This document shows, one piece after another, positions 1 through 60,100 of a stretch of DNA of 64,000 nt. How positions within the stretch are numbered: the first letter of the stretch is position 1; every line of letters starts with the position of its first letter. A program made the position numbers and the translations under genes. The stretch lies in NCBI RefSeq assembly GCF_006345805.1, contig NC_043017.1:27590001-27654000 (forward strand), given 5' to 3'. The notes under the pieces are model-generated. The model ran no database searches. It saw nothing but the letters and a program-made list of their open reading frames with translations, and was not told the origin of the DNA. Source of the DNA: Octopus sinensis (taxonomy: Eukaryota).

Positions 1-220
1 AACACACGCACCGGTGAAACTTCCACGTATTTCTTATTTCATTTTCCTACTTATTTTCGTTTCGTCTTGCAACCTTTGCAATAGTTTTGACTCTTGAAAA
101 CGTTGCAAGACACACGAAATTTTAGGAAAATAAAAATAAGGAATAAGTTTAAATTTTACCGGTAAGTGTATTAAATTATAATGCACAAAAAGAAAACGAT
201 TCTCCCCAGACACAACAGAC
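1..220. repeat. Fold-back module A (left-truncated copy)
   Basis: Near-identical to 1026-1248; imperfect palindrome centred on tcttgcaacc...cgttgcaaga; ends in (TA)n. Confidence 0.8.
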
Positions 221-254
221 TATATATATATATATATATATTATATAATTATAT

Positions 255-498
255 AAACAAAATTAGGGTATAAATTCAAACTTACAGGGAAAATCAGATT
301 TAGGATTGAATCCAATTTTATAGTAAAATATTATGTTATATTAAATTAGAGATAAAACCACTATTAGGCAAATAATACGATGAAAAACTTAAGCCAATAT
401 AGGATTATTTAATTTATATTAAGTTAAATAATCTTATGTATTGGCTTAAGTTTTTCATTGTATGATTGCCTAATAGTGGCTTAATCTCTAATTTAATT

Positions 499-500
<2 letters not shown>
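255..500. repeat. Fold-back module B, copy 1
   Basis: taaattagagat..ccactattaggca..gaaaaacttaagccaata pairs with tattggcttaagtttttc..tgcctaatagtgg..atctctaatttaa; flanked by (TA)n; repeated at 1280-1530. Confidence 0.8.
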
Positions 501-556
<56 letters not shown>

Positions 557-886
557 CTTTATAATTAGGGTTCAGCAAAGATTTGCCGAAGTTTAGAAAT
601 AGCAGTCAAAAACCTTTGCTATTTCTTCTACTTTAAAACAGTCTCCCAGAAAAAACCAAAGTACTTGAAAACAATCTACGTTTTTCTGGATGTCCCTTTT
701 AAAGTAGAAGAAATAGCAAATGTTTTTGTCTGCTATTTCTAAACTTTGGTATGTTGTAAAGCAAATCTTTGCTGAACCCTAATTATAAATTATTACTTAA
801 GCTTACCATGAAATGGTCTTTTTCATGCCGAATTCTACTTGGTGAAATTACTGATTACTTCTTAATTAATTAATTTTACCCTTTTT

Positions 887-890
<4 letters not shown>
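557..890. repeat. Fold-back module C
   Basis: tttataattagggttcagcaaagatttgc ... gcaaatctttgctgaaccctaattataaa inverted arms; related sequence at 10243-10372 and 31565-31720. Confidence 0.8.
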
Positions 891-920
<30 letters not shown>

Positions 921-922
<2 letters not shown>

Positions 923-1244
923 CGTTTTGGGATTTGGTTTGCAAGATTCTTTATGTGAGTTCGTGTGTTTAAGTATATTCTGTTGTGTCTGAGGAGAGTC
1001 ATTTTCTTTTTGTGCCTTAAAATTTAACACACTCACCGGTGAAACTTCCACGTATTTCTTATTTTCATTTTCCTAATATTTTCGTTTCGTCTTGCAACCT
1101 TTGCAATAGTTTTGACTCTTGAAAACGTTGCAAGACACAACGAAAATTTTAGGAAAAATAAAAATAAGGAATAAGTTTAAATTTTACCGGTAAGTGTATT
1201 AAATTATAATGCACAAAAAGAAAACGATTCTCCCCAGACACAAC

Positions 1245-1248
<4 letters not shown>
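921..1248. repeat. Fold-back module A, full copy
   Basis: ctgttgtgtctg..ttttctttttgtgc..accggt pairs with accggt..gcacaaaaagaaaa..cagacacaacag; between (TA)n tracts. Confidence 0.8.
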
Positions 1249-56170: not shown

Positions 56171-56512
56171 ATCTACTGAAAACAATAGCGTTAGTAATTT
56201 CAGGAGAAAGTGATGCTTTATCTCCCTTGGAAAAAATCCTTCCTTCCACGGCTCAGGAGCTACCTTAGCTAAAACGTATTACAAGCTCAATCAGTACCTG
56301 TATAGCGCTTTATCTGCCTGTCTATCTGTCCGTCCGTCTGTCTGTCTGTCTGTCTCACTCTCTCTCCCGTTTTCTCTGTGTTTCTCTCTCTTTCTCTGAC
56401 CCATTCTCTATCTGTTTCTCCCTCTAAGTTTTTCTCCCATCCGTTTTGTTTTTCTTTCACTGCTTGTGTCTGCTTTTGTATCTGTGTCTATAACTATTTT
56501 TCTCCCTTTCTT

Positions 56513-56551
<39 letters not shown>

Positions 56552-56924
56552 CTGCCTTTCTCTCTCTCTCTCTCATACACACACCACTTGGATTTTCCGC
56601 TGAGTCAATTTTGTGCAGGATTACTTGACAGCTAATTATAGGGGAGTTTAAGGAGAGAAGTCATGTCCGTCGCCTCTAGAACTTAAATGGCATTTTATAT
56701 TACAAATACGGAACGGATGCAATGCAAAGTTGCTCTCACCAGGATTTGAAATCAAGCGTAAAACCAGAAGACTTTCCCCAAGGAATTCTTTTGTCTGACG
56801 TTCTAAAGACTCTACTACGTCATCGCATTAACGTAGTCATGGATAACTCTAAAATCGTGATGGCCTTCGCTGGAATGATTAGCTCCAGTGCTTACAGCAA
56901 TAACAACAACAAAGACAACACCAG

Positions 56925-57085
56925 TATGGTGGAGGCGCAGTGGTTAGGGCAGCGGACTCGCGGTTGTAAGAACGCAGTTTCGATTCCCAGATCAGACATT
57001 GTGAGTGGTTATTGAGAAAAACACCTAAGCTCCACGAGGCTCCGCTGTACCCTTTCACCACAAATTTCTGTCACTCTTTCTTCCT
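56925..57085 (+). mobile_element. SINE family C, diverged 5' part
   Basis: cagtggttagggcagcggactcgc..tttcgattcccaga..cacctaagctccacgaggctccg. Confidence 0.78.
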
Positions 57086-58104
57086 ACTCCCACTGCAAAT
57101 CAGAGGAACCATGGTGTAACCCACTATGGTGTGGTGAACTTTCAGACCCTAATCTCTAGATTGCGAATCCTCTGTACCCCGGGATAATTCAGCTCTCCAC
57201 CCTTTAAAAGCCAGCGTTTACAGAATGAGGATAAAAACGTAGGTTTTGCGCCTGTGCAACCGCCAGTCTATCGCGTGTGGTGGGTGGATCTTCAAGTGGC
57301 CACACGCATTCTTAGTAGCTTAGAGTAGGCTCGAATGCGAGATTATTCTTTGTGGCTATTGGCGTGAGTCCTCATTGGCAGGAGGAGAAGAAGAAGAAGA
57401 AGATAAAGAAGAAAAAGAAGATACCAGCATGCATTTATGAAACGAAACACCACATTTATGTCTCTGTTTTTCAATATATACAGTTTTCGTTTTCGACATG
57501 TCGAAAGCACTCCTTATATCCAGAATGGTTAGTTGCGAAAACTAGAAATATTTCAGAAAGAAGTGGCGTATACTTAACTAGTAATTTGATTAAGAACGTG
57601 CAACGGCGAATGGCAGTAATGAATATATAGAAAAGTGCTGGAAACTATATTTGTTCTTTATAGTTTTCTAATATTTTAGATTCAAAATGTGATTTGAACG
57701 TGGAAGATAAAAAAAAAGAAGAACCAGCAAAAGAAAATTAAAATCTGCGTACATATATCAAATTTAATTCTGAAGCCAAGCTAAAAATATATTTAAAAAA
57801 TAATACAAAAATGAAAGAGTAAATAGTAAAATGAATGACATTTTAACTTCATACTCTGTGAACCGTAAAAACTAAATGAAACAGCTTCATTATGTTTGAG
57901 GGCAAAGAAACTAACTGCGACTTAAAAGACTTCCCTTTCATAGAGACGGACATGGAGAGAAACGAATAAAATGGAAAAATTATTCTAAAATGTGTATGTT
58001 TTTTTTTAGCATTTTTTTTTTGCTCTTTTTTTATTTTTAAATTTTGGTTTTATTTTTGGACTTTTCCCATCAACTTATACCGTAATCATTAAAATGTAGT
58101 AATA

Positions 58105-58955
58105 TTGATGATGGTGATAGCGGCGGCAGCAGTGGTGGTGTTGGTGTTGGTAGTAGTAGTGGTGGTGATGATGATGATGTCGTTGATGATGATGGCAATG
58201 ATTGCGACGATGATTTTGGTGATGATGATGATTACGACAATGATTATGACGACAACGATGATAATGATAACGATGATGACGACGCCGATGATGATGATGA
58301 TAGTGATGATGATGATGAGGTGGCAGAGGAGCAGGAATGATGATGATGATGATGAGTGGTGGCGGTGATGCTGTTCAGTGTTCTGATTGTGCTGATGGAA
58401 CTTGTTAATGATGTTGGTGATGAACTCAAAGACATCGACAATGAAACGGCGGGGGTCGAGCAAAACGACGACGACGAAGATGACGTGTAATACTGGCATT
58501 CCTGCCGCCGTCGCCGCCCCTGCTGCTACTGCTGCTTCTGTCACTTCATCATGATCAGGAGGATGGTAGTGAGACCGATTCTGGTTTGGCGGTACTACTA
58601 GTGGTGTTGTTCAAAGTAACAGTAGTGATAGTGGTGGTGGTGGTGATGATGATGCTGGAGATGGGATGATGATCATGATGGGATGATGATGATGGTGATG
58701 AAGATGATGGCATGATGATGATGATAATGATGGAGATGATGAGATGATGATGATGGAGGTGATGGAGATGGGAAAAATGATGATCGCGGTGAGGCTGATG
58801 TGTCTGAGCGTGGTCGTGATGTTGATGATAATGGTGGTACTTTTGATGATGATTATAATGATGATGGCGATGATGATGATTATGATGTGATGATGATGAT
58901 GTTGATGATGATGATGTTGATGATTATGATGATTATGTTGATCGACGGGGATGAT
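58105..58955. repeat. (GAT/GGT)n trinucleotide region with a central complex island
   Basis: Direct; less repetitive GC-rich core at ~58365-58620. Confidence 0.9.
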
Positions 58956-59472
58956 TGTATAAGTACGAAGCTAATGTATTATTAAATTACACTTTCCACA
59001 AAGTGAAAATATATATGTTTTTTTTTTTTGTGAAGCCTTAAAATATTTAACATGACTTTAAAAGAAAGTAGAATATTTTAAGTATTCCATAGAGAGATCA
59101 TTCATATTCGGAAGATATGTCTTTATCGTAGTGTAACTTCAGCTCATTCATTATCCGCGAGATGTTTTTAAACAAAATTCTTTCTATCGCGACCGTAATG
59201 TTTTTTTTATATGTTTTCGAATTCAGCCATTTTAAATTTCAAGTAGTTTTAGTTAACTCGTTTGAAGTTAGTCAATGGTGGTTTCGCCTGTTTTTTTCTT
59301 TGATATCTTACGACAAAATCATTCCCTTATCGTTCGCTTAATTCACGTAATATATGTATTAATATAAATATATATGTCCATATATATGTGTGTGCCTATG
59401 TGTGTTTGTGTGCGCGTATATATATATGTGTGTGCGTGTATATATGTATATATATAGATATATATATATATA

Positions 59473-59890
59473 CCGGAAAAAACACATAAATGTGAAACAG
59501 GGTGGAAAAAAGAGTACTCAAATACCAGTGGTAGAGTAATATGCTTTACTTAAAGCAGCAGAAAATCCAACCAAACTTGTTACTCTGAGTTTCCCGGGTT
59601 TTGTTGAATTTTCTGCTGCTTTAAATAAAGTATGTCTGTATATATATATGTATATATATGTATGTAAAATAATATGTGACAATTATTCAATAGCCAAGAT
59701 AAAACTCTGAGTTTCGGATGCCGAAGTGGAAATCCACAACATCATCTGTACGGTTATCGTCATCATCCGAAACTCAGTTTTATCTTGGCTATTGAATAAT
59801 TGTCACGTATTATTTTACAGATACATTTCCTCTATTTACATAATATTGAGGTCTCCTTTCTTTCTTTTGTTATCTTAACGCTTTTACCAA
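59473..59890. mobile_element. Two TA-delimited fold-back elements with hammerhead 3' halves
   Basis: Hairpins 59541-59633 and 59664-59818; both contain actctgagtttc (minus strand GAAACUCAGAGU). Confidence 0.7.
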
Positions 59891-59904
59891 TATATATATA
59901 TATC

Positions 59905-60100
59905 ATTCGCCAGGATAGATTGCTAGCCACCACACATTCTTTATTTTCCCACCCTGTTTCTTTCTCTGTTCCCTTCTGTGGAAGAGCGCAAGCTCGAAAC
60001 ATTAACGACTTTTTCACTTCCCGAGCGATAAACTAATACATCTGTCTGTTGTCTACCCCACCTGTCTTCGTCTTTTGCTTTTTGCGAATTCTCCCCACCT
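59905..60100 (+). mobile_element. TA-embedded ~200-bp element, copy 2 of the 53512 family
   Basis: cgcca.gatagat..tagc..ctgtggaa-GAGC-gcaa-GCTC-GAAAc..ctaatacat..ccacctg.cttcgtcttttg. Confidence 0.7.

What the first reader, a model, noticed from the sequence alone, without database searches (positions are those of the whole stretch)
1..60100. Community of microsatellite-embedded, hammerhead-bearing non-coding elements
Seen: about ten short inserts, most bounded by or next to (TA)n, share the signature GAAA + self-complementary stem III + UN while differing in primary sequence. Stem III variants are ACAGCUGU (1700), ACACGUGU (20494), ACUAUGCAUAGU (25232), ACGUACGU (31290, 31844), ACAUAUGU (41307), ACGU (53615) and ACUC-N-GAGU (36208, 59582, 59704). 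Established: Penelope-like elements and non-LTR retrozymes carry minimal type I hammerheads whose palindromic stem III permits dimeric cleavage. Inference: this genome hosts many parallel families of non-autonomous, TA-seeking ribozyme retroelements, roughly one per 6 kb here, which standard annotation would mask as simple repeat.
Basis: partly seen in the sequence, partly recalled or inferred. Interest (0 to 1): 0.8.

Follow-up and report, generated by a model that had tools for sequence, protein, structure and literature searches.

The report
Penelope retroelement ends with variant hammerheads
The short inserts are mostly cut-down ends of Penelope-type jumping genes that sit in TA repeats and carry a predicted self-cutting RNA (a known arrangement), but several large families carry fixed changes in the RNA's catalytic core, which likely weaken cutting without stopping their spread.

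Summary
All ten motifs are present, and each belongs to a dispersed family whose other copies form a type I hammerhead. In a 1-Mb sample of this genome, 27 intact motifs were found against under 1 in shuffles; 22 of 27 lie within 250 nt upstream of (TA)n. Four sites (41307, 53615, 59582, 59704) match the 3' ends of coding Penelope-like elements: three Hydra-clade, one Neptune-type. They are 5'-truncated, often inverted, and most have the two-ended PLE 'tail'. The 31290/31844 family is a 559-bp tandem retrozyme. Only one window copy (31332) passes the strict descriptor. Hydra PLEs with hammerheads and (TA)n preference are published, including in octopus. What I did not find in print: fixed core variants. 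U4C (CCGANGA) marks a coding Hydra family (2,278 matches, 97 of first 100) and other families. A6U (CUGUNGA) marks a Neptune family with intact ORFs (13,219 matches, 99 of first 100); across its subfamilies the core is conserved while N7 and H17 vary, as in a working hammerhead. Cleavage is untested, and one key paper could not be read.

The parts
1577..1850 (-). Family D: old (70-85% identical copies) PLE-type 3' end with hammerhead. Stem III ACAGCUGU, GAAA at 1711, core decayed in this copy (1772-1766); 3' end abuts (TA)n at 1559-1576. Coding status unresolved.
20425..20599 (-). Family E: inverted 'tail' fragment plus a copy truncated inside stem II (GAAA at 20504, stem III ACACGUGU). Other copies have a canonical CUGAAGA core. 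No ORF found upstream.
20876..20979 (+). 3' fragment of family J (U4C-core family with ACGU stem III), truncated downstream of the ribozyme
24977..25381 (+). Family B: probably non-autonomous unit. Core CUGACGA at 25158-25164, 60-nt stem II insert, stem III ACUAUGCAUAGU at 25232-25243. This copy has G at position 17 (25244); the 29 other aligned copies have C.
31099..31884 (-). Family A: 1.4 units of a ~559-bp tandem non-coding retrozyme between TA tracts. Intact hammerhead at 31332-31289 (CUGAUGA, U.U at the stem II base, ACGUACGU, cleavage after GUU); the second copy (GAAA 31854) is truncated inside the core.
36143..36269 (-). Family G: hammerhead with U4C core (CCGA[U/C]GA) at family level, decayed in this copy (36257-36251). 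Stem III ACUCUGAGU; shares its tail with family C.
41074..41613 (-). Family H: 3' end of a coding Hydra-clade PLE. A deletion removed the canonical core in this copy (GAAA 41317, ACAUAUGU); short inverted piece at 41589 (+).
53513..53720 (+). Family F: 5'-truncated 3' end of a Neptune-type PLE. A6U core CUGUCGA at 53592-53598, extra A at 9.1, 4-bp stem II, minimal ACGU stem III; ends ~102 nt after the cleavage site in (TA)n.
59472..59638 (-). Family I (U4C-type sister subfamily): copy truncated at stem II with a 5' inversion and long tail (GAAA 59593, ACUCAGAGU). Its sister subfamily is an intact coding Hydra PLE.
59659..59889 (-). Family C: inverted pair from the 3' end of a second coding Hydra PLE. 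Family core CCGAAGA (U4C), decayed here (59753); GAAA 59715.
59904..60099 (+).

Best explanation
The inserts are 5'-truncated, often inverted 3' ends of Penelope-like retroelements (Hydra and Neptune types) plus a few tandem non-coding derivatives, likely placed into (TA)n by the elements' own GIY-YIG nuclease and reverse transcriptase, each carrying a hammerhead predicted to fold and likely to cleave slowly as a dimer, even in families with U4C or A6U cores. Shown: coding elements with the same hammerhead and the same 3' ends; 3' ends at one or two fixed distances after the cleavage site, directly abutting (TA)n; 5' truncation and inversion; tandem non-coding units; family-level fixation of the variant cores. 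Inferred from published PLE work: the protein nicks AT-rich DNA and primes reverse transcription at two internal sites (giving the 'tail'), early termination and inversion give the short palindromic inserts, and non-coding units borrow the protein. Inserted copies span the scissile bond, so the template was likely uncleaved or re-ligated RNA. Inferred and untested: the ribozyme dimerises through the family-specific stem III palindrome, is protein-assisted, and tolerates attenuating core changes.
For: 27 of 30 loci of a Hydra endonuclease carry the family-I hammerhead ~1 kb downstream, and one full tandem HHR-ORF-HHR unit of 3,355 bp has a 766-aa open frame. 4 of 4 long inverted family-C pairs hold a Hydra ORF; in 3 of them it ends ~230-250 nt before the U4C core. 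7 of 20 family-H loci have a Hydra EN 276-332 nt upstream. 4 of 5 Neptune-ORF loci have the A6U hammerhead 0.36-0.87 kb downstream and end in (TA)n. Distances from cleavage site to (TA)n are bimodal: I 37/108, C 41/109, A 192/290, B 128/225, E 68/215; single for F and J (~102) and H (~202). Descriptor 27 against <1 per Mb; TA within 250 nt 3' in 22 of 27 against 17.6%. Without requiring a palindrome, 14 of 22 stems III are perfect palindromes, against 5 hits in 15 Mb shuffled. Across 15 F clusters the core varies 3.6% and stem II 2.5%, against N7 53%, H17 40% and 3' flank 19%. Published basis.
Against: No cleavage, dimer or expression data. In vitro, HHR-dead mutants of an Anolis PLE still insert, and 8 of 9 Xenopus retrozymes did not cleave. 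A6C strongly cuts Mg2+ activity and U4C lowers activity, so the variants may be inactive. The hammerhead fold is 0.2-4.7 kcal/mol above the MFE in 10 of 11 representatives and 11.7 above in family D. 13 of the 15 F clusters are single copies, and BLAST favours hits with a conserved core. No partner ORF was found for A, B, D, E, G or J, nor for the U4C subfamily of I. Clades were assigned by motifs, not by a tree with reference sequences.
Confidence: 0.82

Rival explanations
1. Same elements, but the U4C and A6U hammerheads no longer cleave; the fold is kept as a protein-binding or dimerisation signal near the reverse-transcription start, or is drifting after loss of catalysis. (This rival concerns the ribozyme step only.)
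For: HHR catalysis was not needed for PLE insertion in vitro and no reads ended at the cleavage site; A6 and U4 changes reduce activity; inserted copies span the cleavage site; Naiads thrive without canonical HHRs.
Against: C3, G8 and A9 are invariant and G5 varies once across 15 F clusters while N7 and H17 vary, the pattern of catalytic constraint. In multi-copy families the majority base at position 4 is U or C, never a purine, apart from a few clusters judged false. U4C still supports viroid infectivity.
Confidence: 0.35
2. All ten sites are independent non-autonomous ribozyme retroelements.
For: Family A is a non-coding ~559-bp tandem with arrays of up to about a dozen motifs; a B-related family forms 490-bp tandems; most genomic copies are short.
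Against: C, F, H and I continue upstream into long UTRs and PLE ORFs with variable 5' ends.
Confidence: 0.08
3. Chance palindromes in AT-rich DNA, or MITE-like foldbacks with no ribozyme.
For: The short ACGU form is barely enriched; several window copies are foldbacks; the descriptor gives some false clusters; a core-less foldback family exists at 923-1252.
Against: 15 canonical, 7 U4C and 5 A6U hits per Mb against 0.08, 0.08 and 0.58 in shuffles, and 0 in reversed DNA; compensatory stem II changes between family H and its relative in L352; linkage to PLE ORFs.
Confidence: 0.02

Closest known systems
Hydra-clade Penelope-like elements, including Hydra-1_Obim of Octopus bimaculoides (Craig et al. 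2021, PMC8557442)
   Same: C-terminal GIY-YIG, RWK and DKT motifs, no CCHH, hammerhead near the 3' end, (TA)n insertion. Published Hydra HHRs include ACUC-N-GAGU stems III and a U/U step at the stem II base, as in families C, G, I and A.
   Different: All Hydra HHRs in their table have CUGANGA cores; here one coding Hydra family has U4C. The family-I element has CNF in place of the CxC linker, a 1-kb UTR and a 3.36-kb unit.
Neptune-clade PLEs (Neptune1_Ap-like) with minimal PLE hammerheads (Cervera & de la Pena 2014, PMC4209133)
   Same: DKG, CX4CxxC linker, CCHH-type EN; extra nucleotide at 9.1, G10.1-C11.1 pair, ACGU stem III that can pair only in a dimer.
   Different: The core is CUGUNGA (A6U). 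The only core covariant I saw in that paper is U3-A8.
Non-LTR retrozymes (Cervera & de la Pena 2020, PMC7229834; Li et al. bioRxiv 10.64898/2026.07.22.740005)
   Same: Family A: short low-GC non-coding tandem units, each with a type I hammerhead, proposed to be PLE derivatives.
   Different: 559-bp unit with PLE-type rather than loop-loop canonical hammerhead, PLE tail, inversions and TA targeting; circular RNA not shown; not reported from cephalopods in what I read.
Natural hammerhead core variants: U4C (viroid) and A6C (phage Bcep176) (Perreault et al. 2011, PMC3088659; PMC7151607)
   Same: Single changes at core positions 4 and 6 that lower but do not abolish activity.
   Different: Those are described as rare variants. 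Here they are fixed in families of thousands of copies, and A6U was not found in the searches.

Membership tests
Type I hammerhead ribozyme (PLE type) | Stems I, II, III around the junction, GAAA and A15.1-U16.1 | tested here: met
   All 11 family representatives can adopt the three-way fold; in F and J stem III needs a dimer; descriptor enrichment
Type I hammerhead ribozyme (PLE type) | Core C3U4G5A6N7G8A9 in families A, B, E, H and coding I | tested here: met
Type I hammerhead ribozyme (PLE type) | Core C3U4G5A6N7G8A9 in families C, G, J, I-sister (U4C) and F (A6U) | tested here: not met
   C4 in 97 of first 100 family-C matches; U6 in 99 of first 100 family-F matches, A6 in 0. Family D is mixed
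Type I hammerhead ribozyme (PLE type) | H17 is not G | tested here: met
   Family level; the window copy at 25244 has G
Type I hammerhead ribozyme (PLE type) | Site-specific self-cleavage, dimer dependence | not testable with these tools
   Needs an in vitro assay
Hydra-clade PLE (families C, H, I) | Single RT + C-terminal GIY-YIG ORF with RWK and DKT, no CCHH | tested here: met
   L373 and L374; family H seen only as RT and EN fragments. Pfam sees little: GIY-YIG E=0.024 in L374, nothing in L373
Hydra-clade PLE (families C, H, I) | CxCX5C linker | tested here: inconclusive
   Met in family C; the second Cys is Phe in the family-I element
Hydra-clade PLE (families C, H, I) | Hammerhead in the pLTR and (TA)n insertion | tested here: met
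Hydra-clade PLE (families C, H, I) | RT phylogeny with reference Hydra elements | not tested
   Compared by eye with the printed Hydra-1_Obim only; the tree holds only this genome's fragments
Neptune-clade PLE (family F) | DKG motif, CX2-5CxxC linker, CCHH, C-terminal GIY-YIG | tested here: met
   757-aa open frame in L389, motifs read by eye
Neptune-clade PLE (family F) | Phylogenetic placement in Neptune rather than Nematis | not tested
   By-eye likeness to Neptune1_Ap rows
Non-LTR retrozyme (family A) | Short tandem units each with a type I hammerhead, GC <45%, non-coding | tested here: met
   Period 553-562 bp, GC 33%, longest stop-free frame 101 aa, no PLE protein hit in its 30 loci
Non-LTR retrozyme (family A) | Expressed as circular RNA | not testable with these tools
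   Only assembled contigs of runs not on record as RNA were available
Non-LTR retrozyme (family A) | Loop 1-loop 2 tertiary contacts of canonical HHRs | not tested
   Not examined

The most novel reading that the evidence does not exclude
A retroelement family with intact ORFs and 13,000+ copies runs on a hammerhead with a core not found in the papers searched (CUGUNGA), and U4C has been fixed repeatedly in other families, because the PLE protein completes or gates the active site. These would be natural protein-dependent hammerheads, tuned to cleave only inside the retroelement particle, with family-specific stem III palindromes restricting dimerisation to kin.
Probability: 0.25. Interest if true: 0.75.

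Novelty: new variant of a known kind. Interest (0 to 1): 0.5.

Why it matters
What the hammerhead does for Penelope-like elements is open: it is conserved, weak in vitro and dispensable in one insertion assay. This genome offers natural matched pairs, sister families with canonical and U4C cores and a young coding family with A6U, that make the question directly testable. About 12 of 27 intact motifs in the sample carry such cores and would be missed by CUGANGA descriptors. Extrapolated, roughly 70,000 intact motifs and many more fragments show that the TA microsatellites of this genome are heavily colonised by PLE ends, which repeat annotation could easily mislabel as SINEs or MITEs.

Tried and rejected
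Rfam scan: the 150 rows shown were microsatellite-driven miRNA false hits with no hammerhead family; 487 lower rows were not seen. The repeat finder was swamped by microsatellites. The first search for 36208 hit only the adjacent LINE 3' end and was redone. Idea that variant cores mark only non-autonomous copies: rejected, both U4C and A6U sit on coding elements. Idea that U4/C4 is per-copy CpG decay: rejected for family I, where it is linked to a second diagnostic site (A before GAAA in 96 of first 100 U4 matches, 4 of first 100 C4 matches; hand count). An apparent A6C family (cluster 7) is a false hit upstream of the true canonical core. A candidate at 989-1140 is a core-less foldback. Hydra fragments beside family B (L039/L050/L352, L051) are separated by TA tracts and not taken as its ORF. 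No RNA holder listed; contigs from four runs cover family A and show the tandem junction, which also exists in DNA, so nothing is concluded on expression. The protein-representative search returned 1,127 relatives at E<=1e-30 but no names. The stem III cross-pairing matrix shows self-pairing stronger than cross-pairing, which any set of different palindromes would give. Three look-ups of earlier scan findings returned nothing. Lunse et al. 2017 is not held.
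Full report
Setting. The window is G000:C21:27590001-27654000 of a 2.72-Gb assembly, 33% GC and rich in microsatellites. The host is probably an octopus; this rests on recalled repeat content and on by-eye likeness of the ORFs to Hydra-1_Obim, not on a test.

Observation. All ten motifs are present, 8 on the minus strand. 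GAAA + palindrome (>=8 nt, >=4 G/C) occurs 10 times against 1.9 +/- 1.4 in 60 shuffles; the form that admits ACGU is barely enriched, 61 against 44 +/- 7. Only two sites have CUGANGA upstream in the window, and one of those has G at the cleavage position, so the question had to be settled at family level.

Families. Each site was searched in the genome and the copies read. A (31290/31844), B (25232), E (20494) and H (41307) have canonical cores in other copies. C (59704), G (36208) and the subfamily of I to which 59582 belongs have CCGANGA. F (53615) has CUGUNGA. D (1700) is old and mixed. Window copies are mostly truncated, deleted or decayed.

Null tests. In 100 evenly spaced 10-kb stretches (fixed positions, not random draws), a strict descriptor found 15 canonical, 7 U4C and 5 A6U motifs, against means of 0.08, 0.08 and 0.58 in 12 shuffles and 0 in reversed DNA. 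Other cores gave 4 against 1.7, so not enriched. That extrapolates to roughly 70,000 intact motifs (inference). (TA)>=4 lies within 250 nt 3' of 22 of 27, against 17.6% of random positions; on the 5' side 10 of 27. Without demanding a palindrome, 26 hits were found against 5 in 15 Mb shuffled, and 14 of the 22 stems III of 6 nt or more are perfect palindromes. All DNA then held (about 1.96 Mb, biased to my queries) gave 257 hits in 45 clusters, some of them false.

Partners. A protein search with an endonuclease fragment gave 150 scored hits of 17,962 candidates; 27 of the 30 loci fetched carry the family-I hammerhead about 1 kb downstream. L373 is a tandem HHR-ORF-HHR element with a 3,355-bp unit, RWK and DKT motifs and no CCHH, the Hydra signature. 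All 4 long inverted pairs of family C that I fetched hold a second Hydra ORF with a CxCX5C linker; its EN groups (96/96) with a canonical-core relative in L232 (a tree with weak deep branches). Family H has a Hydra EN 276-332 nt upstream in 7 of 20 loci. Family F leads upstream to a Neptune-type ORF: 4 of 5 long-ORF loci have the A6U motif downstream and end in (TA)n, and the fifth (757-aa open frame) showed none within the 1.2 kb fetched. The U4C subfamily of I shares about 0.9 kb of UTR at 78% with the coding element in 1 of 8 copies fetched, but its ORF was not reached. Family A is a non-coding 559-bp tandem (438 exact matches). B is probably similar; D, E, G and J have no partner yet.

Geometry and mechanism. 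Distances from the cleavage site to the first (TA) run cluster at two values in I (37/108), C (41/109), A (192/290), B (128/225) and E (68/215), and at one value in F and J (~102) and H (~202); some copies have no nearby run. This matches the PLE 'tail' produced by two internal reverse-transcription starts. Window inserts at 20425, 59472 and 59659 are an inverted 3' piece joined to a 5'-truncated copy, the usual PLE arrangement. Copies span the scissile bond, so the template was uncleaved or re-ligated (inference). Nicking at TA, priming and trans-mobilisation of A and B are inferred from the literature, not shown.

Variant cores. Exact genome-wide counts (reversed-pattern control 0 in each): family I canonical 2,662 and U4C 1,245; family C 2,278, with C4 in 97 of the first 100; family F 13,219, with U6 in 99, C6 in 1 and A6 in 0 of the first 100, while position 7 is U 49, A 22, C 16, G 13 (hand counts of the listed rows, all from the first contigs). 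Among 52 F copies in 15 clusters, core positions vary 3.6%, stem II 2.5%, N7 53%, H17 40% and the 3' flank 19%; U6 is kept in 13 of 15. This is the constraint pattern of a working hammerhead, but 13 clusters are single copies and BLAST favours conserved cores. U4C is known from a viroid and lowers activity; A6C is known from a phage and strongly lowers Mg2+ activity. Against function: HHR-dead PLE RNA still inserts in vitro, and 8 of 9 Xenopus retrozymes did not cleave.

What is known. PLE hammerheads with palindromic stem III, Hydra PLEs with (TA)n preference including Hydra-1_Obim, retrozymes as PLE derivatives and active PLEs in Octopus vulgaris are all published. The class is therefore known, and known in octopus. 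I did not find fixed U4C or A6U cores in PLEs in searches (listings and abstract starts), in Craig's HHR table (canonical motifs by design) or in Cervera's supplementary file 2. Lunse et al. 2017, the largest survey of PLE hammerhead variants, is not held and may cover them; so may Cervera's file 1 and the supplements of the 2026 preprint.

Papers as seen. PMC8557442: passages, section 11, supplement searches and parts 2 and 57. PMC4209133: parts 1-2 of 4 and a search of supplement file 2. PMC11167929: parts 1-2 of 4 and one passage. bioRxiv 10.64898/2026.07.22.740005: parts 1-3 of 5. PMC3088659: passages and section 8. PMC7229834, PMC6765202, PMC13282606, PMC7151607: passages. Lunse 2017: nothing but its citation in PMC6765202. 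Hammerhead numbering and the reading of protein motifs are from my own knowledge.

Verdict. This is a dense community of known PLE ends and a few retrozymes; the new part is the family-level fixation of U4C and A6U cores in coding, recently amplified elements. New variant of a known kind; interest 0.5.

Noticed in passing
window 1-1530 and L353 end: A ~1,025-bp block is repeated in tandem (pieces of three units, the first reaching upstream of the window); local duplication or assembly artefact.
   Followed up: partly
window 923-1252; L386-L388: A ~280-bp near-perfect foldback family (2,945 search candidates) with a one-sided 3' tail like a PLE end but no hammerhead core; MITE-like or a core-less PLE derivative.
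   Followed up: partly
window 557-920 and 10242-10352: Foldback pieces, partly related to family A.
   Followed up: no
L373:1572-3869: A young Hydra element with an intact frame whose zinc-finger-like linker has Phe in place of the second Cys, yet its copies still end in (TA)n; bears on the idea that the linker directs TA targeting.
   Followed up: no
L374-L375: The family-C reverse transcriptase has YKDD with an AIY-type context where the family-I element has GLYRDD.
   Followed up: no
L376:2222-4249: A second PLE ORF (DKG type, RVT_1 and weak GIY-YIG hits) lies between an inverted pair of family-C hammerheads.
   Followed up: no
L348:2100-4100, L218: A B-related tandem retrozyme family, period ~490 bp, five units plus inverted copies, stem III of 12 nt.
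   Followed up: partly
L145, L223, L232, L276, L302: Family J: ~250-bp elements with CCGACGA core and ACGU stem III, 4 intact per Mb in the sample; partner ORF unknown.
   Followed up: partly
window 36290-36800: 3' end of a common non-LTR element ending in (ATA)n-type repeats, 1,539 candidates, abutting family G.
   Followed up: no
window 3146-3799 and many sites: Abundant SINE-like families; one forms a 184-bp tandem of 3.6 units.
   Followed up: no
L370:2931-3620: 230-aa frame resembling a hAT-type transposase fragment (resemblance recalled, not tested).
   Followed up: no
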